Source: Lachnospiraceae bacterium
GTDB lineage: Bacteria; Bacillota; Clostridia; Lachnospirales; Lachnospiraceae
Direction: 5' to 3'
NCBI GenBank assembly: GCA_015057585.1
Contig: SVEF01000013.1
Span: forward strand, 27,054-91,053
Length of the DNA: 64,000 nucleotides
Shown: positions 49,446 through 64,000 of the stretch, one piece after another
Layout of the letters: the number at the start of each line of letters is the position of its first letter
Position numbering within the stretch: the stretch's first letter is position 1
The notes under the pieces: model-generated
What the model was told of the DNA's origin: nothing
The model's input: only the letters and a program-made list of their open reading frames with translations
Database searches by the model: none
Program-made: the position numbers and the translations under genes

Positions 49446-49521
49446 ATGTAAGGCGGTGCGGTGCAGCAGGCATCGCGCCGTTTTTTATGTGATATTTTGG
49501 AGAAGAGGAGATACATAAAAG

Positions 49522-50856: not shown

Positions 50857-50873
50857 GAATAAGGGGAAGCAGA

Positions 50874-51107
50874 ATGAAAAACTATACCAAATTGGATATT
50901 GTAAAAGATATCATTTTCTTTTTTATCACAGTAGCGGTGGCATATGGATATATTCTGTTACTGCTTTTGATACTTAGTTTTATGACGAGCAGATATCTTC
51001 CGATGAAGTTTGACGATATGCTGGTATATTCCGGCATAGGGACGTTTATCATCGGAGTCTGGTATATTGTAAAAAAGGTAAAGAAATATCAAAATAAGAC
51101 GGAGTAG
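50874..51107 (+). CDS. Small membrane protein (2 TM helices)
   Basis: ATG with an AAGGGGAAG RBS and two hydrophobic helices. The track ORF begins at 50835. Confidence 0.4.
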   Translation: MKNYTKLDIVKDIIFFFITVAVAYGYILLLLLILSFMTSRYLPMKFDDMLVYSGIGTFIIGVWYIVKKVKKYQNKTE

Positions 51108-52030
51108 TGAAAAGAATGGAAGTAAAAGCAGTGCAAAACAACAGAATCGGATGGCTGGATGCATGGAAAGGGTTTGCAACACTTTTGGTGGTGCTCGGAC
51201 ACATTGCGGATGGATATCTGGATGCAGGGATGTTTCCCGGGTATACGGGAGTCTTACAGACAGGCTATGATATTATTTACTCGTTCCATATGCCGTTGTT
51301 TTTTGTCTTAAGCGGATATGCCTTTTACGTTGCTTATGCAAAAAACAGAGAAGTAAAGAAACGGAGCATGTGGCTGCAGATAGGAAATATTGCCGTGGTT
51401 TATATTCTTTTCAGTGTATTGCAATGGTGCTTTAAGATGGTATTTGCCGGACAGGTGAACACGACATACACATGGAAACATTTATGGATGATTCCGGTAA
51501 GGACCATGGCTCCGTACTGGTATCTGTATGTTTTGGTATTGCTGTATATGGTTACATGGTTTATAGAGCGGGTAAAACAGCCGGAATGGCTGAAAGTGTT
51601 TTTTTTTCTCGGTTTATATTTTTTAAGTGATTTGTTGCCGGATAGTATATTATTTGAAATAAAGAGAACTTTATATTATAGTTTCTTCTTTTATTTTGGA
51701 ATTTATCTTGCAAAAGCAGTGGCACCGGTTTTGGCAGAGAAACTGGAACCGCTCATAAAACATTACCGGAAAATACCGAAACCGGGCGTGCTTCGGTGGA
51801 TTGGCACTTACAGCCTGGAGATTTATGTCACTCATTGTTTTATTACTGCGGCAAACCGGAGGATTTTACCGGCAATCGGTATTACAAACTTCTATTGTAA
51901 TATAGTAACTAATTTTATTATGGCGGTTCTTTTGCCGGTAGCGGCAGCCTGTATATTGAAACATTTACGGTTGCATTCGTGGATTTTCCGACCGGTAACG
52001 TCATTAACAAAACATACCAGTGTAAGGTGA
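51107..52030 (+). CDS. Acyltransferase family 3 membrane protein (OatA-like O-acyltransferase)
   Basis: N-terminal GWLDAWKGFATLLVVLGH motif and about 9 TM helices. Confidence 0.65.
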   Translation: MKRMEVKAVQNNRIGWLDAWKGFATLLVVLGHIADGYLDAGMFPGYTGVLQTGYDIIYSFHMPLFFVLSGYAFYVAYAKNREVKKRSMWLQIGNIAVVYILFSVLQWCFKMVFAGQVNTTYTWKHLWMIPVRTMAPYWYLYVLVLLYMVTWFIERVKQPEWLKVFFFLGLYFLSDLLPDSILFEIKRTLYYSFFFYFGIYLAKAVAPVLAEKLEPLIKHYRKIPKPGVLRWIGTYSLEIYVTHCFITAANRRILPAIGITNFYCNIVTNFIMAVLLPVAAACILKHLRLHSWIFRPVTSLTKHTSVR

Positions 52031-52093
52031 GCAAAACTGCAAATACTACTAGCGTAACATCAAAAACAAATTTTATTTTTGGAGGTAAGAGTT

Positions 52094-52258
52094 ATGTCTA
52101 GAAGTAGAAACAGAGTCGAAGTTCCTGAAGCAAAGAGCGCTATGGATCAGTTCAAGATGGAAGTTGCATCTGAACTCGGTGTGCCTTTAACAAACGGTTA
52201 CAATGGTAACCTTACAAGTGCACAGAACGGTTCTGTCGGCGGCGAGATGTACCGTTAG
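52094..52258 (+). CDS. Small acid-soluble spore protein, alpha/beta type (54 aa; absent from the ORF track)
   Basis: MSRSRNRVEVPEAKSAMDQFKMEVASELGVPLTNGYNGNLTSAQNGSVGGEMYR carries the conserved SASP alpha/beta core (EIASELGV ... TSRQNGSVGGEM). The GGAGGTAAG RBS sits 3 nt upstream. Confidence 0.85.
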   Translation: MSRSRNRVEVPEAKSAMDQFKMEVASELGVPLTNGYNGNLTSAQNGSVGGEMYR

Positions 52259-52364
52259 ATTTAAAAGCCTTTATTTATGCGGTTTGTAGCAGTTTTGTTT
52301 TATGTTTTTACACCAAATTTACACCAATTTTTTAAAAGCGTAAAAGAGTATTGCAACTTCCTAA

Positions 52365-52396
52365 AAGCCTATAATTTTTATAGGCTTATATTTTTT
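52365..52396 (+). terminator. Terminator hairpin at the left edge of the AT-rich island
   Basis: AAGCCTATAA-ttt-TTATAGGCTT followed by ATATTTTTT, immediately preceding motif copy 1. Confidence 0.55.
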
Positions 52397-52397
52397 A

Positions 52398-52434
52398 CTC
52401 ATAAACTTAAACACACAATTATCTAATATATAAG
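52398..52434 (+). repeat. Island motif copy 1 (CTCATAAACTTAAACACACAATTATCTAATATATAAG)
   Basis: Member of a 9-copy family with consensus CAYAnrAMTTAAACAnnnnnnnnATCTAATAnrTAGr. Confidence 0.8.
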
Positions 52435-52471
52435 TCAATGTAGTGTATTTTCATATATGGAAGGTTTTTAC

Positions 52472-53029
52472 ATGAATCGCGCATCTCAATTAAAAAAATT
52501 ACTTCAAGCAAAAGAATCTCTAATCCTTTCTAAAAAATCAGATAACCCGTCCTACAGTAGTAAAGATAAATATCATGCAACTTTAAATAATTTTTTACAT
52601 CAAGAAATTCCCTTTATCCGAGATATTATTGACATTATGAACGTTGCACCAAATAATGGTGACGACTTTAGGAATACTCCATATCAGAGAACGCCTATTT
52701 CAGTCATAAACGAAGCTGGTAGCTTTTTTGTAGGATACCTTGGAAAAGGACATCGGATTGATGAGAAATTTGGATTTGCAGTGGGGTTTGATTTTGAAAC
52801 CTCAAAACCTATCGTTAAGAATTTCATTCGAGATAATCGTTGCAGTTATAAAACCTGTCCTCTCGAAGAGTCTTCTAAAACACTCCAAAAAGATTTGGAA
52901 GACTTTATAGAAATGTTTCAAACTTTTAAAGTCGATTTTTATGCCTGTTATGAAAACTTAATGTTAGCTCTTTCTGATGAAATCGATTTGCTTAAAAATG
53001 AATGTACCCCACCCGTAATGAATGTGTAG
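52472..53029 (+). CDS. Hypothetical protein (island cassette 1)
   Basis: AT-rich ORF. ATG at 52472 with GGAAGG 7 nt upstream; the track ORF begins at 52457. Confidence 0.45.
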   Translation: MNRASQLKKLLQAKESLILSKKSDNPSYSSKDKYHATLNNFLHQEIPFIRDIIDIMNVAPNNGDDFRNTPYQRTPISVINEAGSFFVGYLGKGHRIDEKFGFAVGFDFETSKPIVKNFIRDNRCSYKTCPLEESSKTLQKDLEDFIEMFQTFKVDFYACYENLMLALSDEIDLLKNECTPPVMNV

Positions 53030-53214
53030 CCTTGCCGAATTGTTGAAATACCTGTCGATATAAAATTGTTTACATTTTTCCTTTTGAGTGATACTCTCTA
53101 TATAAGGAAAAAGGAGGCTAATAAACAACAATACCCAGTCGAAAAAATCCCCTTTTGTAGGGGACAGACTCCTAAAGATGAATAACAAAAATGATTATGA
53201 ATTAGGAGGTTATT

Positions 53215-53430
53215 ATGGCTAGAGGTAAAAGAAATCTTCCTTTAGAAACACAGCTAGAACAAATTACTCAAAACATTGCAGCTATGGAGGAAAATTTAGT
53301 AGAATTAAAGAAAGCTAAAAATGAAATTGAAGAACAAATCAGAATGAATCAGTTGGCTGAATTAAATGATTTAATTTCTGAAAAAGGATTGAGTTTTGAA
53401 CAAGTGAAAGAGTTATTAAATAAGGAGTAG
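53215..53430 (+). CDS. Small coiled-coil protein (71 aa)
   Basis: AGGAGG RBS. Heptad-rich (LEQITQNIAAMEENLVELKKAKNEIEEQI). Terminator at 53425-53452. Confidence 0.45.
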   Translation: MARGKRNLPLETQLEQITQNIAAMEENLVELKKAKNEIEEQIRMNQLAELNDLISEKGLSFEQVKELLNKE

Positions 53431-53457
53431 TCCCAAGTGACTACTCTTTTTGTTTTA

Positions 53458-53495
53458 CTCACAGACTTAAACAAAATTCTATCTAATAGATAGAG
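53458..53495 (+). repeat. Island motif copy 2
   Basis: CTCACAGACTTAAACAAAATTCTATCTAATAGATAGAG, directly after the terminator. Confidence 0.8.
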
Positions 53496-53518
53496 ACATA
53501 AAATGCAACTCTGGAATA

Positions 53519-53548
53519 TTAGACAATAAGGTAATTTTATTGTATAAT
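53519..53548 (+). promoter_or_regulatory. Sigma-A-type promoter (TTAGAC, 18 nt spacer, extended -10 TGtATAAT) for the HipA-like gene
   Basis: ttagacaataaggtaattttattgtataat, about 25 nt downstream of motif copy 2. Confidence 0.5.
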
Positions 53549-53594
53549 TGAGTTGTAATCCATTTGAAAACATATATCAACAAGGAGAATGTTT

Positions 53595-54800
53595 ATGAAT
53601 GTAAAAAATTTAACACTCATGATGAAAGATACCCCAGTTTTATCCGTAAATTTAGACGAAGGGGAATATATTGTTCTGAATGAAAACTTGCTTCCTTTTG
53701 ATATGAAAGGCCGATTACGCAAACAACCAGAATTAACCGGGAATGTAAGTTATGACGCAAAACAATTAGCAATTTCCGCTATCAAAAATTATGAACAGTT
53801 ACTTGCTTTTTTATCGCATAGAGTATTACCAATTAGTAGAGAAAACGCAAAAAAAATTTATCAGTTATTTGGGGTAGAACAATTACAGGATGAAGTTTCA
53901 AAAGCTAAAATAGCAATCTTGTGCAGAGCCGTGTCTTTGCAAGATAATTACTGGGTGAAATTAGAAGATGAAAAAATAACTTGGAACGACGTTAATCTTA
54001 GAACAAACAGCCTCAGCGAAATTGTTACTCAAGTCTCCTTGCACGGAAGTTCATTATCCCTATCCGGTATGGTTCATACTCCAGAACTTACTGGACAAGG
54101 AGCTTATGCTAAAGCTTGGATAAGAGAAGAGGATGGATTATATCTACACAAAAGAGGGGCGAATGGTTCTTGGGAATCGAAAATTGAAGTTATGGTTTCA
54201 AATTTATTAGATTTTTGTAATGTCCCACATTTGAAATACGAGTCTTCTTCTTCTGTAGATATACAAACTCAAGAGTCCGTTTATACCTGTAAATGTAAAT
54301 GTATGACTACAGAAGATATTTCCATCCTTTCCGGAATGGATTTTACTTCTTGGTGTAATGTTAGAGGTGTAGACCCTTATAAAGAAGCTTTAAAAATTGA
54401 CCCGGAAATGATATATAAAATGTGGATAGTTGACTATTTGATTTCAAATCGAGATAGACATGGATTAAATTGGGGCTTTTTTTATGATTGTAATACTATG
54501 GAGATTTTAGGATGCCACCCTCTCTACGACCACAATAATGCTTTTGATAATGCCTTGATGTATGATAAAGACGCAACTTATTTATACGACCAAAGGATGA
54601 CTATGAGAGAAGCTGCAAAGCGAGCTATGGAACACGTTGATTTTCACTTTACGAAAGAAATCACCAGAGACGATTTTCTTACCGAAAGACAATATAAATC
54701 TTTTATGGACCGAACCCAAGAGCTTGGTATAAAAATTAAATCATCAATGTCAGAGGCCGAATCAGAAGGAATTGTTCCATCGACATTAACGTTTTCGTAA
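53595..54800 (+). CDS. HipA-like Ser/Thr kinase domain protein
   Basis: C-terminal WIVDYLISNRDRHGLNWGFFYD matches the HipA catalytic loop (D-x-H-x-x-N). ATG at 53595 with AAGGAGA 7 nt upstream. Confidence 0.5.
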   Translation: MNVKNLTLMMKDTPVLSVNLDEGEYIVLNENLLPFDMKGRLRKQPELTGNVSYDAKQLAISAIKNYEQLLAFLSHRVLPISRENAKKIYQLFGVEQLQDEVSKAKIAILCRAVSLQDNYWVKLEDEKITWNDVNLRTNSLSEIVTQVSLHGSSLSLSGMVHTPELTGQGAYAKAWIREEDGLYLHKRGANGSWESKIEVMVSNLLDFCNVPHLKYESSSSVDIQTQESVYTCKCKCMTTEDISILSGMDFTSWCNVRGVDPYKEALKIDPEMIYKMWIVDYLISNRDRHGLNWGFFYDCNTMEILGCHPLYDHNNAFDNALMYDKDATYLYDQRMTMREAAKRAMEHVDFHFTKEITRDDFLTERQYKSFMDRTQELGIKIKSSMSEAESEGIVPSTLTFS

Positions 54801-54820
54801 TAATTTAAGAGGTGTTTATA

Positions 54821-55291
54821 ATGATAGCAGGATTTCGAAATGAATATTATTTTTTAAGTAATTTCTATATTTGCAATATCAATTATAACGGTAAAACTTA
54901 TCAAAGTGCTGAGGCTGCATTTCAAGCTCAAAAGTCATTGGATGAAAATATTCAGTGGCAATTTACCGGATTGTCTCCAAGAGATGCCAGAACCCAAGGA
55001 AAAAGAGTTCCACTCAGACCGGATTGGGAAGAGGTGAAAGAAGACATTATGAAAGAAATTCTTATCATCAAATTCTCCAAGCCGGAATTGAAAGAAAAAT
55101 TACTTGAAACCGGAGATGAGTTTTTAGAAGAAACAAATGGATGGCATGATAACCATTGGGGGAATTGTAACTGTGAACGATGCCGGAATATTCCGGGTAA
55201 AAACATGCTTGGTAATTTATTGATGGATGTTCGTAAGAATTTTCAAGAGGAAATATTCAGGAATGAGAACCCTCCATATATGCAATGTTAA
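54821..55291 (+). CDS. NADAR (YbiA/DUF1768) family protein
   Basis: FLSNFY...YQSAEAAFQAQK...W...HWG pattern. ATG at 54821 with an AAGAGGTG RBS. Confidence 0.6.
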   Translation: MIAGFRNEYYFLSNFYICNINYNGKTYQSAEAAFQAQKSLDENIQWQFTGLSPRDARTQGKRVPLRPDWEEVKEDIMKEILIIKFSKPELKEKLLETGDEFLEETNGWHDNHWGNCNCERCRNIPGKNMLGNLLMDVRKNFQEEIFRNENPPYMQC

Positions 55292-55334
55292 TAAATATTT
55301 TTTTGTAATCATTTTATTTAAAATATTTCTTAAT

Positions 55335-55375
55335 ACACATGAACTTAAACAGAAGGCCATCTAATAAGTAGAAAC
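55335..55375 (+). repeat. Island motif copy 3
   Basis: ACACATGAACTTAAACAGAAGGCCATCTAATAAGTAGAAAC. Confidence 0.8.
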
Positions 55376-55458
55376 TGATATTATTTAAAGAAATGAGCTA
55401 TTACCTCATGTTAAAAGAAATTATGTTTGGCAACTGCACCTAAAGGAGAATATGTTTT

Positions 55459-55878
55459 ATGAAAAGTTCGCCTGTTATTCTTGACAATATGGTCTATTAC
55501 AATGGAGCAGAACAATATAAAAACGAAAAATGGGTATTCTTTTCAAACTATCCCCACAGTCATAGTGTTGAAACCGACATTACAATTATACATTCCGGTT
55601 TGATTTGTAGAGTCAATCCCACAACTACTGACCGATTTGGAAAGACTTTACCGGATAACTTTGCGGTAGAACTTCCTGCCGACCTTGGATTGTATGAACA
55701 ATCAGATGCTGTCAACAAAAAATTCGATTTGTGTACTGAACTCAGAGAAGAGTATGAAAAACGATTTTACGAACAAGGTATTGTCCCTGAAGGGTATTTT
55801 AGTTGGGAAAGACCTTGTTATCTTGGATGTGAAAAAGAATATGGTTTAAAAAAGCCGGAAAAAACCAACAAAGCGTAA
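55459..55878 (+). CDS. Hypothetical protein (139 aa)
   Basis: AAAGGAGAA RBS 8 nt upstream. No recognisable domain. Confidence 0.4.
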   Translation: MKSSPVILDNMVYYNGAEQYKNEKWVFFSNYPHSHSVETDITIIHSGLICRVNPTTTDRFGKTLPDNFAVELPADLGLYEQSDAVNKKFDLCTELREEYEKRFYEQGIVPEGYFSWERPCYLGCEKEYGLKKPEKTNKA

Positions 55879-55901
55879 TCACAAATGCAGGAGTTTGTCT
55901 T

Positions 55902-57326
55902 ATGAATAAACACGATTTGGTCTATGAAAAAATGCGAGGAGCATACATTAACCTAATGAACTATCACTCTTATAGTGTTCAAGAATTATATCTAACTTTA
56001 GAAAAAATTTTTGACGAATGTTATAAACAAGGTCTTGTGAAAGAAGGCTACGAGTTTATTTGCGATGTAGGGTGCAATGTAGCGTTACGATTTGTGTTTT
56101 ATAAGGATATTACCGAACTTTATTCGACAAATCTTAAACAAAAAGACGAACCCGAGGGCTGTCTTGTATCGAGGGATATGCCTTTACGCTATGCGGCAAA
56201 TAAAGAAACTTCTACACTTCTTGGGTACGAAAGAGCTCTTAAAGATATGGGGTTACATATAGCAAAAACGGCCGAACGGTCATTTTTTGTAGCATTAAAC
56301 AAATTAAAACCCGGAGTTGTTGTTGCTTTTACGGAAGGCAAAATGTATGTTTGCCGTGAAAATAAAGACTTAAAAATAACACTAGACCGTGTTTTTGACG
56401 GGGACATTAAAAATATCAACCCATCTGCATTCGTTAAAACAGAAACCATTGAATTGGATTTAACGGACTCTATTAGCGTTCAGCGATTTTACAATCAAAA
56501 TGCCAAAAATCTCACATGGTCTTGTGAAGTAGAGTACGCTGTTCTTAGTGACTGTATCAAAGAACTGGAAGGTTTGAAACGAGGAATTTCTCGATTCCAA
56601 TCAAAAGCTTTTCAAGTTGGACCGGTATCGTTCGTCGGGAAAAAATCTGTTTGGTCTAATCATGTAAAATGGTATGACAATACCGGTGCTCAAATTACAG
56701 ATGAACAACTTTCTTACCTAATCGGATTGCTTCATACACAACCAATTACAACAAAATATATCAGAAAAGAGCCGACATTCGAGAAGATTGCTTCTGATGA
56801 AGAATTTCGATTAAAAATCGAACGTTTACTAGACGACAAACAATATGACCTTGCATATCAAGAAATGTTAAAATATTCAAAAACACATACAAACGATTTA
56901 ATCATAAAAACAGATGGCTTTTTAAGAAATAATAAGAACGAATATATTGCCGGGTCTATTGTTTTTAGAGATGGACAAGCATTTCAACTATCTTATGAAG
57001 ATAACGATTTATCTAAAGATGTTGTAAAAACGTCTGAATTAAATAAATCGGATTTTATCGCACTTTGTCAATGTAAATATACCGAAACTTATGAACGGGT
57101 TTTTGCTAAAGCTGCAGAAGAAATTGAAAAAGAATATCATTTAAAATTAGAAGATATGACGGCAACGCAAAAACGAATTGTTAAGCAACAAGTAGAAAAA
57201 GAAATGGATAAAACCTCTGGCATTATATTAAAAAAAGAAAACATAATGTCAGGAACGACTGATGCTTCCGACATTATAAACGAAATGTCAGAAGACAACT
57301 CCATCAATATTTTGTTACAACGTTGA
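55902..57326 (+). CDS. Hypothetical protein (474 aa)
   Basis: Long AT-rich ORF with a GCAGGAG RBS. No recognisable domain. Confidence 0.4.
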   Translation: MNKHDLVYEKMRGAYINLMNYHSYSVQELYLTLEKIFDECYKQGLVKEGYEFICDVGCNVALRFVFYKDITELYSTNLKQKDEPEGCLVSRDMPLRYAANKETSTLLGYERALKDMGLHIAKTAERSFFVALNKLKPGVVVAFTEGKMYVCRENKDLKITLDRVFDGDIKNINPSAFVKTETIELDLTDSISVQRFYNQNAKNLTWSCEVEYAVLSDCIKELEGLKRGISRFQSKAFQVGPVSFVGKKSVWSNHVKWYDNTGAQITDEQLSYLIGLLHTQPITTKYIRKEPTFEKIASDEEFRLKIERLLDDKQYDLAYQEMLKYSKTHTNDLIIKTDGFLRNNKNEYIAGSIVFRDGQAFQLSYEDNDLSKDVVKTSELNKSDFIALCQCKYTETYERVFAKAAEEIEKEYHLKLEDMTATQKRIVKQQVEKEMDKTSGIILKKENIMSGTTDASDIINEMSEDNSINILLQR

Positions 57327-57344
57327 TAGAAAGGATATTTTTTA

Positions 57345-57872
57345 ATGACAGCTTCTTTTTATATTTCTTTTATTTTAGTCGCACTTGTTATTGCTACTTT
57401 ATTTGCAATTTATAGCGGCTATAAAACATCAGTAATAAAAAATAGAAACAACTATATATACATTACTTCTCCACTTATTGAACTATTCGGCCCTTTTGAT
57501 AAGGATATCTGTAATTATTGCTTGTATTTTGTAGATGCTGAATATATTCAAATTGAACACGATGATGAATATTTTTATAAGTCTGTAGAAAAAAATAGAG
57601 AATCACTAACTCAGTGTATTTTAGGATATCAGCAGATTTATGAACGATTAAAATCTGGAGAAACGATGGAACACTTATTTTATGACCCGGATTTATCTCA
57701 AATTGCTCACTCTTGTTTTGACGTCGGACCGAGAATCTTTGGAACCGTTATTAACAACAAAATTGTATTAAATAATGGCCGACATCGTTATGTTATTGCC
57801 AAAGAACTGGGAATAAAATTACCTGTATATATAGCGTCCGAGACGGTAATTAATATTGATTTAAACAAATAA
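57345..57872 (+). CDS. Membrane-anchored protein with a ParB/Srx-like nuclease-fold domain
   Basis: N-terminal TM helix. C-terminal LNNGRHRYVIAKELGIKLPVYI resembles the ParB N-terminal DGxHR motif. Confidence 0.4.
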   Translation: MTASFYISFILVALVIATLFAIYSGYKTSVIKNRNNYIYITSPLIELFGPFDKDICNYCLYFVDAEYIQIEHDDEYFYKSVEKNRESLTQCILGYQQIYERLKSGETMEHLFYDPDLSQIAHSCFDVGPRIFGTVINNKIVLNNGRHRYVIAKELGIKLPVYIASETVINIDLNK

Positions 57873-57936
57873 ACAACCACATAAAAACAAATGACAAAGA
57901 GGGTATTCATAGATACTCTCTTTTTTTTTGTTTGTT

Positions 57937-57974
57937 TCACACAGAATTAAACATATTTTTAACTAATATATAAA
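57937..57974 (+). repeat. Island motif copy 4
   Basis: CACACAGAATTAAACATATTTTTAACTAATATATAAAT, directly after the terminator at 57897-57929. Confidence 0.75.
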
Positions 57975-58035
57975 TAAAGACTATACAAAAGAACGAAGGA
58001 AGGGGAGATTACTCCCCTATTCCCCTCAATAAAAC

Positions 58036-58239
58036 TCAAAATAACGACAATATCGTTAAGCCTGTACTGACAGCGGCTCCGGACAACATGACATTACAGA
58101 ATCGTTTGGCTCTGGAAATTAGTTCGTTTCGTTGGACGAAAATTCCCACCAGAAACACAAATAAACTCAACATAGCCAGAAAAACAAATACTCCGGCAGC
58201 AAACAAAAATATAAATGTAGTTGACTTCATCCTTATCAC
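58036..58239 (-). CDS. Small hydrophobic protein (two TM helices) on the opposite strand
   Basis: AAAGGAGGTGATAAGG RBS on the minus strand. Hairpin AGGGGAGATTACTCCCCT at 57998-58015 acts as its terminator. Confidence 0.45.
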   Translation of the reverse strand: MIRMKSTTFIFLFAAGVFVFLAMLSLFVFLVGIFVQRNELISRAKRFCNVMLSGAAVSTGLTILSLF

Positions 58240-58334
58240 CTCCTTTAAAATAATTATCTGTTCAGAAGCTAGGTCTAAGTCAAGCTGATTTTTTTTATTT
58301 TTTTAGTTGTATTTTTAATAAATAAAATTCTATT

Positions 58335-58372
58335 ACACATAGAATTAAACAGATTTTTAACCAATATGTAGG
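58335..58372 (+). repeat. Island motif copy 5 (diverged 3' half)
   Basis: ACACATAGAATTAAACAGATTTTTAACCAATATGTAGG. Confidence 0.7.
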
Positions 58373-58490
58373 TAAACACAACTTGTTGTCAATCTTTACA
58401 AATTTTAATAATTTTATATTTTTCGACTTATAATACGTAGGAATATAGTCTCGTTTTGTCTGACATTTTAATAAAAGTATGTGTTTTTTA

Positions 58491-58519
58491 TTGACATATT
58501 GAATAATATGATTTATAAT
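58491..58519 (+). promoter_or_regulatory. Consensus sigma-A promoter TTGACA, 17 nt spacer, TATAAT
   Basis: ttgacatattgaataatatgatttataat, which lies inside the track ORF 58481.. and implies the true start is downstream. Confidence 0.55.
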
Positions 58520-58585
58520 GAAACCTGCACTATTATGGATTTTTGTGTCCTATTGGTGACAACACACAAATGGAGAAAATTTAAG

Positions 58586-59080
58586 ATGAATTCAAAAGAT
58601 GATTTTGAGCGATATTCAAGCCTGTATTACTATCAATTATACAAAAGTGCTTATGCTCACAAAAAATTTATATACGGCGCTATCACAACCATAGTAATTC
58701 TTGGAGCACTCGTTCCTTTTGCGGCCCAATTCATTTTGCCGTTTTTCTTTCCTGAATGTAAAATTGCCGGGGCAGAAATTTGGAACCAATATGTAAGTAT
58801 TGTGTTGGGAGTTGTTGCTACTTTAATGAGTATCATATCATTAAAGCTTAGTTTTGACAATATGACCCAATCTTTTGAATCTGAACGAAGAACACGAGAG
58901 TTATTCGCAAAATTAGAAGGACACTTAATTGATATTGAACATAATCAAAACAACTTATTAACAAAAACAGATATTATGTCTCTTTTGAAAAATGGATATC
59001 ATTTTGAAGAAGAGAATGATATAATTTCCCAATGGAACTCACCAAAAGCAACAAGTAAGAGTGAAAGCAATGATATTTAG
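58586..59080 (+). CDS. Hypothetical membrane protein (164 aa, 2 TM helices)
   Basis: ATG at 58586 with a TGGAGAAAAT RBS, downstream of the promoter. Confidence 0.45.
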   Translation: MNSKDDFERYSSLYYYQLYKSAYAHKKFIYGAITTIVILGALVPFAAQFILPFFFPECKIAGAEIWNQYVSIVLGVVATLMSIISLKLSFDNMTQSFESERRTRELFAKLEGHLIDIEHNQNNLLTKTDIMSLLKNGYHFEEENDIISQWNSPKATSKSESNDI

Positions 59081-59094
59081 GAGGTTATGATTTT

Positions 59095-59601
59095 ATGTGT
59101 GTGCAAAATGTAAATGCAACGATTTCATTATTTTCAGACGTAAGAAATGCAGAAGTTCAAGGAGCTCAAGAATTCATAAGACCATTTGATATCATTGTTT
59201 CAAAAACAATCAATGACAACAAATATATTGGAGGTTTTTATATAGTAATAGATATTGTATTATTATCTACCACAAATGAAGGAAAAAAAGAAGACAATGT
59301 TGTTTATAACAAACAAAAAATAGATGTTATTGTTAGATTGACAAAATCTAGTAAAGACTTTCAAAAAAGATTATCTTCAGATATAGATGAATTTACAATA
59401 GATACCTCTAATGAAAACATTATAAAAAGAAATGCATGTGTTGAATATGTTGGATATAAGAAAATTAAAAAAATTGATATTGATGGGATTAAATTAAGTC
59501 CAGAAGCAGGAACAGGAGATTATATTTTCAAAGTATTAGTAAAACGACCATGTGATAACGAGTACCAAGTACAATCTGTTTATAATTTACGAATAGAATA
59601 A
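59095..59601 (+). CDS. Hypothetical protein (168 aa)
   Basis: AGGAGG RBS. Terminator hairpin at 59626-59657. Confidence 0.4.
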   Translation: MCVQNVNATISLFSDVRNAEVQGAQEFIRPFDIIVSKTINDNKYIGGFYIVIDIVLLSTTNEGKKEDNVVYNKQKIDVIVRLTKSSKDFQKRLSSDIDEFTIDTSNENIIKRNACVEYVGYKKIKKIDIDGIKLSPEAGTGDYIFKVLVKRPCDNEYQVQSVYNLRIE

Positions 59602-59921
59602 TAATGAAAAAAAAGAGAGTCAGGGAAATAAATTCCCCGACTCTTTTTATATTATAAATATTGTTTTAATCAATCCACTTAAGGGTTCCATAATGGCTAT
59701 AACTATTGTTGTTGATGTCATTTAAATAAGACGCCTTTATTATAGGCGTCTTTTTTATTCTACCAAAAAAAATGTAAAAACTATCTAAAAGTGTCGTATG
59801 GTGTCGTGTTTTATAATTTGTATTTTTTGCCAGATTCCTTTAACATATAATAGTTACGTTTGGTTATATATGTTGAGGAACTTTTATATTGCTCTTTTTT
59901 TTGTTGTCCTAATAACACCAA

Positions 59922-59961
59922 ACACATGAACTTAAACATAATATTATTTAATATATAGAAA
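59922..59961 (+). repeat. Island motif copy 6 (5' half conserved, 3' half diverged)
   Basis: ACACATGAACTTAAACATAATATTATTTAATATATAGAAA. Sits in tandem with copy 7, 30 nt downstream. Confidence 0.65.
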
Positions 59962-59991
59962 TGAAAGCCAAAATTCTTTCTATTTTTAATT

Positions 59992-60031
59992 ACACATAAA
60001 CTTAAACAGAGAGTTATCTAATAAGTAGAAC
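59992..60031 (+). repeat. Island motif copy 7
   Basis: ACACATAAACTTAAACAGAGAGTTATCTAATAAGTAGAAC, followed by an extended -10 TGGTATACT at 60071-60079. Confidence 0.8.
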
Positions 60032-60107
60032 AAATAATTAAAACGACCAGTATACGAAAACGACAAAATATGGTATACTGAATAAAGATTTGAAAGGAGA
60101 ATACCCT

Positions 60108-61631
60108 ATGAAGAATTTTATTAAAGCACATACAAAATTATGGATTGGTTGTATCGTGGGTGGTATTGCAGTTATAGGAATTATGCTTTTCGTGGTTCCT
60201 CAATTTGTGGAGCAGCCTGATGTAACTCCTACGCCAACTATAGCTCCAACTAATACACAGGCTCCAACAGTAACTATAGAGCCTACAACCGAACCGACTT
60301 CTGAACCAACTGTAAATCCAACAAACACTATAACACCTACAGAAATTCCTGTGGTAACTGTAGAGCCAACTGTAGAACCAACTAAGGCTCCTACCAACAC
60401 ACCTATAGTAACCCCAACATTCACTCCGGTTCCTACACCAACGTTGAGTCCTACTCCGAGTCCTACACCTTTTATTCCTCCTACACCAGTACCTACAAAC
60501 ACACCGACTCCTACACCGAGTCCTACACCTACTAATACTCCTACTCCTACTGTTACTAATACTCCTACACCAAGTCCTACTAATACTCCTACACCAACAC
60601 CAACAGTAGTACCAAGCACATTACGTGCAAATGTACAGATGGGCGATAATGTATATTTTAAATACTATGATGATGGAACATTAGTAGTTACCGGTACGGG
60701 TAGTACATGGGATTTTGCAAACAACGATGATATGTTAAATGTTTTTAGCAAAAACTCTGGTATTGATAAAACTTCTCTTGTGAAAAACAATTACTTAATG
60801 AAAGAAACAACCGTGATTATCATCAATGAGGGAGTTACTCGAATTGGCGATTGTGTTTTTATTACAAACTATCAAAATACAACAGACGTTTATTTACCTA
60901 GTTCTCTCAAATCTGTTGGAAAGTATGGTTTCTACAGAGTTGGTTACATTTATAAAAATACAACTTGGCATAATCTCAATCTTGATAAATTAACATTTAT
61001 GGACACTTCTTTCGGTAAAACCAATGCACTTGATGGTTATACAAAGGAAGAAATTGAAAAAGTTCAGGTAACACCAACACCTACACCAAGTCCAACGGTA
61101 ACACCTACTCCAAACCCGGCAAAACCAAGAGAAATCTTTGTTGTAAAGGGTAGTAGCGAAATAGTAATGACCTATATTGACAACGGAACTTTAGTAGTTA
61201 CCGGTACGGGGACTTTAAATGAATGTTTGAATTTCACTCGTTATTGTCAGCGAAATAATATTCCTCTTACATCTGAAGTGTTAAAGCATTTAGTAATTGA
61301 AGAAGGATTTACTGATTTATATGAAATGTGTCTTGATTATACACATTATAGTGGTCTCCCGGTACTTTTCGAAACAATTACTCTACCAAAGTCTTTAACC
61401 AAAGTGTACAATAGAAAAGACCATTCTTCTTATGGAGCTGGTGGTCAATATTGTGGTTGCATTAAAGTTGGTGGAAAGTTAATTGCTTATGATAAAAATG
61501 GCAATAAATTTCAATTTACTGTAACAAAACTGCCATCAGAAAAACATTATGGAGCTATTGTTCATGAAATTTTCAACTGGCTTAATGATGGAACTTATAG
61601 TCAATACGGTACGCTTAAGTGGATTGATTAA
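60108..61631 (+). CDS. Membrane-anchored surface protein: N-terminal TM helix, ~150-aa Pro/Thr-rich linker and two BspA-like leucine-rich-repeat-type domains
   Basis: PTPTPSPTPTNTPTPT linkers. Domains have the pattern TVIIINEGVTRIGDCVFITNYQNTTDVYLPSSLKSVGKYGF. ATG at 60108 with an AAAGGAGAA RBS. Confidence 0.5.
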   Translation: MKNFIKAHTKLWIGCIVGGIAVIGIMLFVVPQFVEQPDVTPTPTIAPTNTQAPTVTIEPTTEPTSEPTVNPTNTITPTEIPVVTVEPTVEPTKAPTNTPIVTPTFTPVPTPTLSPTPSPTPFIPPTPVPTNTPTPTPSPTPTNTPTPTVTNTPTPSPTNTPTPTPTVVPSTLRANVQMGDNVYFKYYDDGTLVVTGTGSTWDFANNDDMLNVFSKNSGIDKTSLVKNNYLMKETTVIIINEGVTRIGDCVFITNYQNTTDVYLPSSLKSVGKYGFYRVGYIYKNTTWHNLNLDKLTFMDTSFGKTNALDGYTKEEIEKVQVTPTPTPSPTVTPTPNPAKPREIFVVKGSSEIVMTYIDNGTLVVTGTGTLNECLNFTRYCQRNNIPLTSEVLKHLVIEEGFTDLYEMCLDYTHYSGLPVLFETITLPKSLTKVYNRKDHSSYGAGGQYCGCIKVGGKLIAYDKNGNKFQFTVTKLPSEKHYGAIVHEIFNWLNDGTYSQYGTLKWID

Positions 61632-61701
61632 CAACCAAATAAACTTTCCTTTTATAGAGGGAATAGAGAAGGTAGGATTTTTATATCCTACCTTTTTTTC
61701 T

Positions 61702-61740
61702 TCACATAAAATTAAACAGACAGTCATCTAATATATAGGG
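61702..61740 (+). repeat. Island motif copy 8
   Basis: TCACATAAAATTAAACAGACAGTCATCTAATATATAGGG, directly after the terminator at 61670-61700. The downstream reading frame is open from the last base of the motif. Confidence 0.8.
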
Positions 61741-63666
61741 CTTACTTTTGCCTCAGCTCCGGCTACCGGAACTTTAACTCAATCTGTAACAGTTCAACTG
61801 ACTATCGTAAGTCAAGAATATAAAGTTTCTTTAGATGCAAATAACGGAAAAAATAATGCAAATTATGACTCAGACGGCCCGTTTTCTGTGTTTTATAAAG
61901 AAACCACCAACAATAATATTTCTCAGTACACTCCATCAAGAACAGGATATATCTTTTCCGGATGGATGAATTCAATAAATGACAATGACGGTGTGTATGT
62001 TTATGACAAAAATGGCATCTTTGTTAATAATACAGGCTATTGGACAAATGACATATGGACTGCATTAAGCGGAGCCATGCTTTATGCACAATGGTCTCCT
62101 AGAACTTATCTTGTCACGTTCGATGCAAATGGTGGTATTTGTGCGGAACAAACCAAAAGTGTAACTTTTGAAGCAACTTATGGTACACTTCCTACACCAA
62201 CAAGAACAGGATATGTTTTTTCAGGATGGTATACTGCAAAAACAGGTGGAACTCTTGTTACAAGTTCTACAACTGTTTCAACAGCTTCAGACCACACTTT
62301 GTATGCACAGTGGACCCCATCTCCATATACGGTTTCTTTAGACCAGCAGGGTGGTTGGAATGGAACTATTAGCGTTATTGCGGATTACGAACAACCTATG
62401 CCAACTCCAATTACGTTGCCGGAAAAACAATTTACTGTTACTTTTGATGGAACCGGAGGTACTCCGGAGGTTCCTTCGTTACAAGCTGTTTGTACATTTT
62501 TAGGATATTTTGCATCAAGAGGTGGCGTCGGAACTCAGTATTACACAAGTACAGGAGCTTCTGCCCATATTTGGGATGTACCTCAAAATTCAACAATATA
62601 TGCAAACTGGCAAACCTCAGAAATTGTTTTACCAAATGCATCTCGAGATGGATATTCGTTTTCCGGATGGTTTTCTGATAGAGTTAATACCGACTTTATT
62701 GGAAATGCCGGAGAATATTATCAGGTAAATGATAATACAACTCTTTATGCATCGTGGACCGCAAACACATATAATGTCTTTTTTGACGCAAATACAGGAT
62801 ATTGTTATTTAGAAAAAAAAGAAGTTTTATATGACGACCGTTATGGCGAACTTCCTTTAGCAACCGTTAGAAAAGACGGAACATTCTTCGACGTTGATGG
62901 AGAATGGGTAAGACCTCAAGATTCAATCCTTTATGCTCACTGGTCGGCTAATACTTACATCGTTGGCGGTATGGACCTTGACGACACGCTTACTTCCAGA
63001 GATGAAATCAATGCAAAGATGGTTATTGTGCTTGATGAAGCAACAGACCAGTGGGGTATTAAAGTAACTCGTGTAGAAATCAAAAACATTATGCCTCCTC
63101 GTGATATTCAGGAAGCGATGGACAAGCAGATGAAAGCAGAACGCGAAAAGAGACAAACCTTACTGGAAGCTCAGGCACACAGAGAAGCTTCTGTAACAAG
63201 AGCAGAAGGTGACAAACAAGCAGCAATTCTTAAAGCCGAAGCGGAAAGAGATGCGGCTATTGCAAGAGCTACCGGTGAAGCAGAAAGTATTAGACTCGTT
63301 TACGAAGCCGAAGCGAATGGTCTTAAGTTGCTCGCAGAAGCCGGTGTAAATGAAACGGTACTTGCTTTAAAGAAAGTAGAAGCCTTAAAAGAACTCGGTC
63401 ATGGACAGGCAACCAAGATTGTGGTTCCTACAGAAATTGCAAGTTTAGCAGCAGATATGACGATTAAGGGAGAGCTTCTTGACATTGCGGATAAAGCAAA
63501 CATCACTCCAGAAATTCCAATCGTACAAAATCAGGACGATTGTTGTGATGACGACAATCGCACCACAACAACAAAAGATTTAAAAGAACAACAGAAACAA
63601 AACTTCAAATCTATGTCAAAAGAAGAGCGAACAGAACTTTTGGATAAAGTACTACATCGTAAGTAA
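61732..63666 (+). pseudogene. Chimeric, 5'-truncated ORF: Listeria-Bacteroides (Flg_new-type) surface repeats without start codon or signal peptide, fused in frame at about 62950 to the C-terminal half of an SPFH/band-7 domain protein
   Basis: The frame is open from 61732 with no ATG/GTG/TTG until the GTG at 61888. Repeats show YxVxFDANGG...GYxFSGW...LYAxW. From GGMDLDDTLTSRDEINAKMVIVLDEATDQWGIKVTRVEIKNI...AEREKR the sequence is a stomatin/HflK-like SPFH C-terminus. GC rises at the junction. Confidence 0.5.
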
Positions 63667-63673
63667 TTGACAA

Positions 63674-63704
63674 AACCCCCTCTAACATGAGGGGGCTTTT
63701 TTTT
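63674..63704 (+). terminator. Rho-independent terminator
   Basis: CCCCCTC-taacat-GAGGGGG followed by CTTTTTTTT. Confidence 0.7.
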
Positions 63705-63705
63705 A

Positions 63706-63744
63706 CTCATAAAATTAAACAAATTTTTATCTAATAGATAGATA
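63706..63744 (+). repeat. Island motif copy 9
   Basis: CTCATAAAATTAAACAAATTTTTATCTAATAGATAGATA, about 40 nt upstream of the next ATG. Confidence 0.8.
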
Positions 63745-63784: not shown

Positions 63785-64000
63785 ATGGAAAAGTGCGGTG
63801 TTTTTTTAGCAAGAATGCAACCGGTTCATAATGCTCATCTACATATGGTACGAAGAGCTCTAAAAGAATGTGATAAAGTTTTAGTTGTCCTTACGGAATA
63901 CAAAACAAAGCTTAACGAACTCCATGATTTAATCAAAGAAAATCCCTTTCGTAGAGGATATGAAGCAAATGTAAATTATGGTAAAGGCTATTATAAGCTT
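63785..64000 (+). CDS. Nucleotidyltransferase of the NadM/NMN-adenylyltransferase-like cytidylyltransferase family, N-terminal part (continues beyond the window)
   Basis: GVFLARMQPVHNAHLHMVRRALKECDKVLVVL matches the G-R-F-Q-P-x-H-x-G-H (H/T)xGH motif region of the archaeal-type NMNAT/cytidylyltransferase fold. AGGAAAAA RBS. Confidence 0.45.
   Translation, partial: MEKCGVFLARMQPVHNAHLHMVRRALKECDKVLVVLTEYKTKLNELHDLIKENPFRRGYEANVNYGKGYYKL

What the first reader, a model, noticed from the sequence alone, without database searches (positions are those of the whole stretch)
61732..63666. Mosaic ORF without a start: surface-repeat protein fragment fused to the C-terminal half of an SPFH/band-7 protein
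The reading frame is open from the last base of motif copy 8 (61732), but the first possible start is a GTG 52 codons in, and there is no signal peptide. The first ~400 residues are Listeria-Bacteroides (Flg_new-type) repeats of the kind normally found in secreted proteins. At about 62950 the sequence changes in frame into the C-terminal half of a stomatin/HflK-like SPFH domain (...VTRVEIKNIMPPRDIQEAMDKQMKAEREKR...), and GC composition rises at the same point. This looks like a recombination or insertion scar. Either the island, or one of its cassettes, landed inside an SPFH-family gene, or two gene remnants were spliced together. This fits cassette exchange at the repeated motif.
Basis: seen in the sequence. 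Interest (0 to 1): 0.65.

Follow-up and report, generated by a model that had tools for sequence, protein, structure and literature searches.

The report
Chimeric gene remnant from a deletion
The start-less frame is real: a beheaded surface-repeat gene was later fused in frame, probably by a deletion, to the back half of a membrane-scaffold (SPFH) gene; an unfused version survives in a sister strain, so this is most likely an ordinary dead recombination scar.

Summary
The frame 61732-63666 is open and has no usable start, ribosome-binding site or signal peptide. It carries Flg_new (InlB B-repeat) repeats, then switches in frame to positions 102-175 of the 176-position SPFH/Band_7 profile.

I mapped three junctions.
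- J1, 61738|61739: the last base of boundary motif copy 8 abuts internal Flg_new coding sequence.
- J2, 62957|62958: Flg_new 'WSANTY' is joined to SPFH 'IVGGMDLDD', at about codon 117 of intact 325-350 aa homologues.
- J3, about 63889|63890: a probable junction inside the next ORF.

Public metagenome contigs hold three alleles on near-identical flanks.
- A-type has complete, different genes after motif 8.
- C-type (L035) shares J1, but its Flg_new frame simply continues past 62957.
- B-type is this window, an NCBI Lachnospiraceae MAG and at least 8 contigs.

So J2 is a recent secondary fusion with 0-2 nt of microhomology, most simply a deletion. It is not a misassembly, and the island did not land in an SPFH gene. 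An exhaustive search found no other protein spanning this junction. The SPFH part shows no relaxed constraint, which fits a recent event.

The verdict is a lineage-specific fusion pseudogene in a strain-variable island. The one curious point is that J1 lies exactly at the motif edge.

The parts
61670..61699 (+). Intrinsic terminator of the upstream 507-aa gene: hairpin AGGTAGGAT/ATCCTACCT followed by a T run.
   Evidence: Sequence; fold.
61705..61738 (+). Boundary motif copy 8 (CATAAAATTAAACAGACAGTCATCTAATATATAG). It contains the TAA (61729-61731) that bounds the open frame. Its last base is junction J1.
   Evidence: Pattern search: 9 copies in the window against 0.00 expected. Alleles L005, L006 and L033 match the window exactly up to 61738 and diverge after it.
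61739..62957 (+). Internal fragment of a large Flg_new (InlB B-repeat) surface-protein gene. It lacks a promoter, ribosome-binding site, start codon and signal peptide.
   Evidence: Pfam Flg_new, 3 stretches. Repeat boundaries of the form W..(T/P)YxV at codons 121, 194, 342 and 404. Identical in L035, where the frame continues. No Shine-Dalgarno sequence or good start.
62957..62958 (+). Junction J2, the in-frame join of Flg_new ('WSANTY') to SPFH ('IVGGMDLDD').
   Evidence: L035 reads ...GCTAATACTTA|TGTTATTTCC. The window reads ...GCTAATACTTA|CATCGTTGGCGG. The SPFH homologue L001 reads ...AGAAATATAGTAGGCGG. The blastn homology to SPFH genes starts at 62959.
62958..63666 (+). 3' two-thirds of an SPFH/stomatin-family gene, from about codon 117 to its stop codon. 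The membrane anchor and the first ~100 SPFH profile positions are missing.
   Evidence: Band_7 profile positions 102-175 of 176. Alignment A1 with intact 325-350 aa homologues. Best identity 78%. dN/dS 0.08-0.13.
63676..63704 (+). Intrinsic terminator of the SPFH gene (CCCCCTC...GAGGGGG followed by T8).
   Evidence: L007/L008 carry a 1-nt length difference beginning at 63692 here.
63708..63741 (+). Boundary motif copy 9. It shows that the SPFH gene sits inside the motif-punctuated island.
   Evidence: The motif is essentially unique to this island.
63785..63889 (+). First 35 codons of a cytidylyltransferase-like gene, ending at probable junction J3 (63889|63890).
   Evidence: Pfam CTP_transf_like. 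Homologues continue '..VLVVLGSENK..' where the window reads '..VLVVLTEYKTK..'. Contig-end arithmetic places an assembly-graph branch at 63890. DNA similarity to L021 fades between about 63890 and 63910.
63890..64000 (+). Sequence that also occurs in another context in the same samples. The frame continues open, and its identity is unknown.
   Evidence: All chimera-bearing contigs end at 64002-64016, except the Logan contig at 63919, which is 63890 + 29. No database protein contains this peptide.

Best explanation
The frame 61732-63666 is a lineage-specific chimeric pseudogene. It is the scar of two successive rearrangements in a strain-variable, low-GC island of a Lachnospiraceae bacterium.

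Step 1 is older and is shared by the B- and C-type alleles. A large secreted Flg_new (InlB B-repeat) gene lost its promoter, ribosome-binding site, start codon and signal peptide when an internal position was joined directly to the 3' edge of the 33-34 bp boundary motif, copy 8 (J1).

Step 2 is recent and is found only in the B-type. An illegitimate join with 0-2 nt of microhomology fused nucleotide 62957, six codons into a Flg_new repeat, to about codon 117 of an SPFH/stomatin gene (J2). This is most simply a deletion between two co-oriented genes of the island. The join happened to be in frame, which has a 1-in-3 chance.

The product, if any is made, would lack a secretion signal for the repeat part. 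It would also lack the membrane anchor and first half of the fold for the SPFH part, so it is most likely non-functional. The frame is still open because the events are too recent for decay.

Shown: the three junction positions, the unfused C-type allele, the A-type alternative allele, and the absence of the fusion elsewhere. Inferred: that step 2 was a simple deletion, that an intact SPFH gene lies downstream in the C-type, and that the frame is not expressed.
For: - Domain truncations: Band_7 covers only profile positions 102-175 of 176. The Flg_new part has no N-terminus.
- Intact SPFH homologues are 325-350 aa and align from 'IVGGMDLDD' to their ends.
- The unfused allele L035 is identical to the window from 47902 to 62957, through J1, and then continues as Flg_new coding sequence with one more Pfam repeat.
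- The alternative allele (L005, L006, L033) diverges exactly at 61738|61739. It carries complete genes, including an intact 1096-aa Flg_new protein with a signal peptide.
- Flanks are identical: L006 has 0 differences in 11,631 nt and L033 has 0 in 13,837 nt. The chimera copies are identical, apart from a 1-nt length difference in the SPFH terminator in L007/L008. The events are therefore recent.
- The SPFH part shows dN/dS of 0.08-0.13 against intact homologues, the same as the 0.10 between intact homologues. It was under purifying selection until very recently.
- Neither GTG 61888 nor ATG 61966 has a Shine-Dalgarno sequence, unlike neighbouring genes.
- phmmer of a 121-aa junction peptide against 1.84 billion representative proteins found only this protein (P0121) spanning the junction.
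- The island holds other remnants: a minus-strand 3' end of a 507-aa-like gene at 59666-59716 and a SASP gene cut at Pfam profile position 48 of 59.
Against: - The right-hand parent, an intact SPFH gene downstream in the C-type, was not seen, because the L035 contig ends 738 nt past J2. The nearest intact SPFH is only 78% identical.
- No intact 5' part of this Flg_new gene exists in the databases. The next best hit is 31-35% identical.
- A 644-codon frame is still fully open and J2 is in frame, so translation from an internal or non-canonical start cannot be excluded.
- J1 falling exactly on a motif edge is unlikely for a random breakpoint. My rough estimate is about 0.3-0.5%, taking 8 motif copies in 9.4 kb and a tolerance of 1 nt either side. 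A mechanism beyond random illegitimate recombination may therefore be involved in step 1.
Confidence: 0.78

Rival explanations
1. Site-specific cassette exchange at the repeated motif created the mosaic. In this reading the motif is a recombination site, integron-like, and the segment from 61739 to the end of motif 9 is a mobile cassette.
For: - J1 and the A versus B/C allele divergence lie exactly at the 3' edge of motif 8, where conservation among the motif copies also ends.
- The interval 61739-63741 runs from one motif 3' edge to the next.
- The motif position is fixed relative to the upstream terminator, but it lies 12-121 nt from the downstream sigma-A-like promoters. It therefore behaves like a unit boundary rather than a promoter element.
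Against: - J2, which is the actual mosaic junction, is not at a motif and has an unfused allele.
- No integrase, recombinase or transposase was found in about 22 kb of island across both alleles, or among the eight other window ORFs scanned.
- The motif has no dyad symmetry and no conserved hairpin.
- The motif occurs only in this island, so no cassette has been seen in a second context.
- A cassette that starts inside a gene is not what an ordered cassette system produces.
Confidence: 0.12
2. The chimera is expressed, from GTG 61888, ATG 61966 or a non-canonical start, and has a function. For example, it could be a cytoplasmic protein in which the SPFH C-terminal helical oligomerisation region displays beta-repeat modules.
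For: - The frame is open for 644 codons and J2 is in frame.
- The conserved SPFH residues are all retained.
- The allele is found in at least 8 contigs from several samples.
- NCBI and JGI pipelines both call a gene here, of 592 and 566 aa.
Against: - There is no Shine-Dalgarno sequence and no recognisable promoter after the upstream terminator.
- There is no signal peptide for a repeat type that is normally secreted. The intact island paralogue has one.
- The SPFH fold is missing its first ~100 profile positions and its membrane anchor.
- The identical sequences mean that openness of the frame carries no information about selection.
Confidence: 0.06
3. The island, or one of its cassettes, inserted into a resident chromosomal SPFH gene, leaving its C-terminal half at the right border.
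For: The SPFH fragment has a higher GC content (41.8%) than the island average (32.4%), closer to the flanking chromosome (44.6%).
Against: - Island motif copy 9 and 31%-GC sequence follow the SPFH terminator.
- The island's left border is a SASP gene. No SPFH N-terminal half occurs in the window or in L005; the best tblastn E-values are 0.28 in the window and 0.094 in L005.
- L035 shows that the sequence left of J2 was once continuous Flg_new coding sequence.
Confidence: 0.02
4. The start-less Flg_new fragment is a silent donor cassette for gene conversion into an expressed surface-protein locus, as in antigenic variation. On this reading the SPFH fusion is incidental.
For: - It is a promoterless, start-less partial copy of a surface-repeat gene kept in frame in two alleles.
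- Another Flg_new gene exists in the island of sister strains.
Against: - It is only 34% identical to that paralogue, far too divergent for gene conversion.
- No expression locus with matching flanks is known.
- There is a single copy, not an array.
Confidence: 0.02

Closest known systems
Fusion pseudogenes and gene remnants left by deletions in variable genomic islands or degraded prophages
   Same: - Truncated domains lie on both sides of an illegitimate junction with almost no microhomology.
- Translation signals are lost.
- Intact homologues of the SPFH half exist elsewhere; for the Flg_new half only an unfused (still 5'-truncated) allele and distant relatives exist.
- An unfused allele is present in the same population.
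- Other remnants lie nearby.
   Different: The 5' truncation point coincides exactly with the edge of a repeated 33-34 bp intergenic motif that punctuates the island. An ordinary deletion does not predict this.
SPFH/Band 7 (stomatin, QmcA/YbbK, HflK/C) membrane-scaffold proteins, Pfam PF01145
   Same: The C-terminal 235 residues align end to end with intact family members. Identity is up to 78%, and about 90% over the first ~184 residues, with all invariant residues retained.
   Different: The N-terminal membrane anchor and SPFH profile positions 1-101 are missing. This is not a functional member of the family.
Secreted InlB B-repeat / Listeria-Bacteroides repeat (Flg_new, PF09479, TIGR02543) surface proteins
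   Same: There are three Pfam-detected repeats, and four repeat boundaries of the type W..(T/P)YxV.
   Different: There is no start codon, no signal peptide and no C-terminal part. The closest intact relatives are only 31-35% identical.
Orphan effector/immunity arrays built by sequential displacement (Vibrio cholerae T6SS clusters, PMC5361080), attributed to homology-facilitated illegitimate recombination
   Same: Gene turnover at a fixed locus leaves start-less fragments behind, and alleles differ by replaced segments on identical flanks.
   Different: There is no toxin/immunity logic here and no conserved coding homology block at the junctions. This is an analogy only. The paper was found; I saw only its title and the start of its abstract.
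Integron gene cassettes (attC-bounded)
   Same: Co-oriented units are each followed by a conserved site. Allele divergence lies at the 3' edge of that site.
   Different: - There is no attC-like hairpin and no integrase.
- The units carry their own promoters and terminators.
- The motif is known only from this one island.

Membership tests
SPFH/Band 7 protein (PF01145) | Complete SPFH domain | tested here: not met
   Only profile positions 102-175 of 176 match, at residues 410-483. The alignment with intact homologues starts at their residue ~117.
SPFH/Band 7 protein (PF01145) | N-terminal membrane anchor | tested here: not met
   Homologues begin with a hydrophobic segment (MxxIIxxV...IKIVPQ). 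In the window this region is replaced by Flg_new repeats. No N-terminal half is found elsewhere in the window or in L005.
SPFH/Band 7 protein (PF01145) | C-terminal helical (coiled-coil) region and tail | tested here: met
   It aligns to the end of the homologues, including the CC(D/E) tail motif.
Secreted Flg_new / InlB B-repeat protein (PF09479) | Tandem Flg_new repeats | tested here: met
   E 2.4e-31 with 3 stretches. The unfused allele has 4 stretches.
Secreted Flg_new / InlB B-repeat protein (PF09479) | Start codon with ribosome-binding site, and an N-terminal signal peptide | tested here: not met
   The first start is at codon 53 and has no Shine-Dalgarno sequence. No hydrophobic N-terminus is visible by inspection. 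The intact island paralogue begins MKKKKQIAKLMIFCMLSTMLISPTTNIVYA.
Fusion pseudogene / recombination scar | An allele without the fusion exists, and the junction is absent from other lineages | tested here: met
   L035 continues as Flg_new past 62957. Only P0121 spans the junction among 1.84 billion representative proteins.
Fusion pseudogene / recombination scar | Not expressed, or product non-functional | not testable with these tools
   This needs a transcriptome or proteome. Indirect evidence only: an upstream terminator, no promoter or Shine-Dalgarno sequence, and truncated folds.
Integron-like cassette array | Recombination sites that fold into attC-type hairpins | tested here: not met
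   Folding all 10 motif copies with their flanks gives no conserved structure that involves the motif. Only the upstream terminator hairpins recur.
Integron-like cassette array | Adjacent integrase or site-specific recombinase | tested here: not met
   None was found in the island part of the window or in the 10 kb specific to the A-type allele. The far end of the island was not available.
Integron-like cassette array | The same cassettes found in different orders or contexts | tested here: inconclusive
   Only three alleles are known, and all differ to the right of motif 8. The motif was not found in other genomes.

The most novel reading that the evidence does not exclude
The 33-34 bp motif (CAYRNRMTTAAACA-N7-WWYYAATANNTAG) could be the recombination site of an undescribed cassette system in Lachnospiraceae, with a directional site, no attC-like hairpin, and crossover at the motif's 3' edge. 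On this reading the start-less Flg_new frame directly abutting motif 8, together with the A versus B/C allele switch at the same nucleotide on otherwise identical flanks, would be footprints of that system acting on an imprecisely captured fragment.
Probability: 0.1. Interest if true: 0.75.

Novelty: new member of a known kind. Interest (0 to 1): 0.25.

Why it matters
On its own this matters little, because it is a dead fusion gene. It should be annotated as a pseudogene, not as a 566- or 592-aa 'hypothetical protein' that would add a false Flg_new+Band_7 architecture to domain databases.

It does have some value as a clean natural example. The unfused allele for the Flg_new side, the fused product and an alternative allele all sit on near-identical flanks in public metagenomes. 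That lets the junction be read to the nucleotide and shows how quickly this island turns over.

The part worth following up is the motif. One rearrangement breakpoint and the boundary between alleles coincide with its 3' edge. If that is not chance, the motif marks a recombination-prone boundary of unknown mechanism.

Tried and rejected
- Exact-protein look-ups of the 592-aa call found nothing. The 566-aa call worked.
- My first motif pattern had one N too many and gave false zeros. It was corrected.
- Two metagenome-contig scans were dead ends. An exact 29-mer from 63911-63939 gave 0 hits, even though JGI contigs fetched through another tool contain it. A scan with the A-type UvrD-like fragment returned only relatives at 38-49% identity.
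- Scans of genome contigs and viral contigs for the motif gave only single chance hits, so no comparative series exists for the motif.
- Viral-contig and phage-record searches with either half found nothing closer than 31-54% identity.
- Searching with the 77-aa downstream ORF found only three cytidylyltransferase fragments matching its first ~36-54 residues, and nothing for the remainder.
- The context of the closest SPFH homologue (P0001) is unrelated: a probable transposon-type gene (my reading of the translation, not scanned), a tRNA-like sequence by eye, and no motif.
- Promoter reading of the motif: it does not fit a sigma-70 geometry. Some units have canonical sigma-A-like promoters downstream of the motif. 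I compared it by eye with sporulation-sigma and phage-polymerase consensus sequences, without a convincing fit.
- A 5-nt CTTAC occurs at 61741-61745 and at 63890-63894. I considered it as a target-site duplication of an inserted segment and rejected it. Contig-end arithmetic places the left branch at 61738, not 61745.
- Rejected explanations: misassembly, and insertion of the island into an SPFH gene. The reasons are given under the rival explanations.

Full report
**What is at the coordinates**

The + strand frame is open from 61732 to the TAA at 63664-63666, a run of 644 codons. The stop that bounds it upstream (61729-61731) lies inside copy 8 of a repeated intergenic motif. The first canonical in-frame starts are GTG 61888 (codon 53) and ATG 61966 (codon 79). 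Neither has a Shine-Dalgarno sequence, whereas nearly all neighbouring island genes have a GGAG/GGA-type one.

Pfam finds Flg_new (E 2.4e-31, three stretches) and then Band_7 at residues 410-483. The Band_7 match covers only profile positions 102-175 of 176. The GC content rises only slightly across the switch, from 38.6% to 41.8%.

**Context**

Positions 1 to about 52,000 are ordinary chromosome at 44.6% GC. They encode GH43 enzymes, arabinofuranosidases, ABC-transporter components and regulators.

From about 52,250 a low-GC region (32%) begins, directly after a SASP gene that stops at Pfam profile position 48 of 59. This island is punctuated by nine co-oriented copies of the motif CAYRNRMTTAAACA-N7-WWYYAATANNTA(G), against 0.00 expected by chance. 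About half of the copies sit immediately after an intrinsic terminator. Each lies 40-210 nt upstream of the next gene, except copies 4 and 6, which are followed by another motif copy.

Some units have a canonical sigma-A-type promoter between the motif and the gene. Examples are 53520-53548 and 58491-58519, and TGATATAAT in the A-type allele. The motif is therefore a unit boundary rather than an obvious sigma-A promoter.

The motif is essentially confined to this island. A scan of 185,579 species-representative genomes gave six single hits, and IMG/VR gave one.

The island cargo includes a HipA-like kinase plus a NADAR protein, which match candidate defence models weakly. It also includes a BspA-type LRR surface protein of 507 aa. 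No recombinase was found.

**The SPFH half**

From 'IVGGMDLDD' to the stop, the sequence aligns end to end with intact SPFH proteins of 325-350 aa from Lachnospiraceae-type metagenome contigs. The best identity is 78% overall, and about 90% over the first ~184 residues. Nucleotide homology begins at 62959. About 116 N-terminal residues are missing, which covers the membrane anchor and the first half of the fold.

No SPFH N-terminal half is present in the window or in the alternative allele.

dN/dS against two intact homologues is 0.08-0.13 in the conserved core. The value between those two homologues is 0.10, and the window branch is not longer. The gene was therefore under normal purifying selection until very recently.

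**The repeat half**

Only the protein itself (P0121 = MBE5951829.1, a Lachnospiraceae MAG, 91-kb contig) matches at 100%. Every other Flg_new protein is 26-48% identical, most at about 30-35%.

**Alleles in public data**

Exact-protein look-ups recovered three alleles on near-identical flanks.

- **A-type** (L005, L006, L033, about 18 contigs). It is identical to the window up to 61738, the last base of motif 8, with 0 differences in 11,631-13,837 nt. After that it carries a promoter, four complete genes, another motif copy, an intact 1096-aa Flg_new protein with a signal peptide (only 34% identical to the window fragment), and further genes.
- **B-type** (the window, the MAG, and L007-L012 and L034; at least 8 contigs from JGI and Logan assemblies). 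This is the chimera, identical in sequence across contigs apart from a 1-nt length difference in the SPFH terminator in L007/L008.
- **C-type** (L035, JGI 3300018475). It is identical to the window from 47902 through J1 and the whole Flg_new fragment, up to 62957. The Flg_new frame then simply continues: 'WSANTY|VISFDDRGATS...', one more Pfam repeat, and 246 codons in all past the junction before the contig ends.

**Junctions**

- **J1 = 61738|61739.** The motif edge meets internal Flg_new sequence. It is shared by the B- and C-types, so it is the older event.
- **J2 = 62957|62958.** The left parent reads ...GCTAATACTTA|TGTTATTTCC. The window reads ...GCTAATACTTA|CATCGTTGGCGG. An SPFH homologue reads ...AGAAATATAGTAGGCGG. 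Microhomology is therefore 0-2 nt, the join is in frame, and it is specific to the B-type.
- **J3 at about 63889|63890.** The short contigs carry the chimera alone. They start 30 or 123-127 nt before 61739, and three of the four end the same distance after 63889, for three different k values. This is what assembly-graph branches at those two points would produce. J3 falls after 'DKVLVV' of a cytidylyltransferase-like ORF. Its homologues continue 'LGSENK...', while the window continues 'LTEYKTK...'. I could not determine which allele holds the intact gene there.

None of the short contigs breaks at J2, even at k=31. The C-type was therefore absent or rare in those samples.

**Interpretation**

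The mosaic is real, recent and confined to one lineage. An exhaustive phmmer search with a 121-aa peptide centred on J2, run against 1.84 billion representative proteins, found only this protein spanning the junction. SPFH hits start at the junction and Flg_new hits stop there. The few two-stretch hits are internally duplicated SPFH proteins.

The simplest history has two steps. First, the Flg_new gene was truncated at its 5' end against motif 8. Later, a deletion within the island fused the remnant to a downstream, co-oriented SPFH gene. That SPFH gene belongs to the island, since it is followed by a terminator, motif 9 and low-GC sequence.

The open frame and the in-frame join need no selective explanation. 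The events are too recent for decay, and a join falls in frame one time in three.

The island holds other remnants. A minus-strand 3' end of a paralogue of the 507-aa gene lies at 59666-59716, with its own terminator. The SASP gene is cut. Gene truncation is evidently common in this region.

**What remains odd**

J1 and the A versus B/C divergence fall exactly on the motif's 3' edge, which is also where conservation among the motif copies ends. For a random breakpoint I estimate this at roughly 0.3-0.5% (8 copies in 9.4 kb, tolerance of 1 nt either side). This is a rough figure of my own, not a tool result.

It suggests that the motif edge is recombination-prone or is a genuine unit boundary. 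Three things speak against a classical cassette system: no recombinase, no hairpin, and no second context for any unit. I give that reading about 10%.

**Verdict**

This is a scar from two spliced gene remnants. It is not an island insertion into an SPFH gene, and the Flg_new/SPFH join itself is not motif-mediated. It is an ordinary kind of object, a fusion pseudogene in a hypervariable island, that happens to be unusually well documented by co-existing alleles. Interest is low.

Noticed in passing
window 52094-52258: The alpha/beta-type SASP gene at the island's left edge ends 'GSVGGEMYR*', at Pfam profile position 48 of 59. The GC content drops right after it. The gene looks C-terminally truncated by the island boundary, in all alleles seen. 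Whether the missing 3' end lies at the far end of the island, as in an intervening element, is unknown.
   Followed up: partly
window 63785-64000, plus the L009 tail to 64016: The ORF after motif 9 has about 35 cytidylyltransferase-like codons and then unrelated sequence. Contig-end arithmetic places an assembly branch at 63889|63890. Every chimera-bearing contig stops at 64002-64016. This is a probable third junction, or the right boundary of the strain-variable segment.
   Followed up: partly
window 59602-59760: On the minus strand there is a remnant of the last ~16-20 codons of a paralogue of the 507-aa gene ('..NNNSYSHYGTLKWID*'), with its own terminator (59644-59616). It is 86% complementary to 61595-61631. 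It is another gene remnant in the island.
   Followed up: yes
window 52400-63741 (nine copies); L005 14104-14136: The 33-34 bp directional motif CAYRNRMTTAAACA-N7-WWYYAATANNTA(G) often lies immediately after terminators. It is unique to this island among about 186,000 representative genomes and IMG/VR. Its function is unknown. It does not fit a sigma-70 geometry, and canonical sigma-A-like promoters lie downstream of it in some units.
   Followed up: partly
window 52031-52138: A cluster of differences within about 110 nt (3 substitutions and a small 52066-52070 substitution/indel patch; listed as 6-7 differences), just upstream of and inside the SASP gene, distinguishes L004, L005 and L035 from the window, L006 and L033. 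It segregates independently of the A/B/C allele type, which implies recombination among these strains.
   Followed up: no
L001 (Logan SRR29277926, 48 kb) and L002 (ENA ERZ27227526, 272 kb contig): Among the closest intact SPFH homologues (74-75% identical) are genes in low-GC (35-38%), single-strand gene arrays. These arrays carry dUTPase, dCMP deaminase, ThyX, a DnaG-type zinc ribbon, SmpB, PspA, an NrdR-type zinc ribbon and many small unknown ORFs. The pattern resembles a very large phage or a plasmid.
   Followed up: no
window 53595-55291: An adjacent HipA-like kinase (401 aa) and NADAR-domain protein match PADLOC candidate defence families PDC-M03A and PDC-M42C weakly, and match PHROG families of unknown function.
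   Followed up: no
window 61741-61745 and 63890-63894: The same pentamer, CTTAC, sits 2 nt inside the left end of the B-specific segment and immediately after its right end. I considered it as a target-site duplication, but the assembly branch positions do not fit that, so it is probably chance.
   Followed up: yes
L005 19948-21499: In the A-type allele, the 337-aa GNAT-type ORF runs on into the 3' end of a convergent UvrD-like helicase gene, overlapping it by about 150 nt. This may be another truncation or fusion.
   Followed up: no
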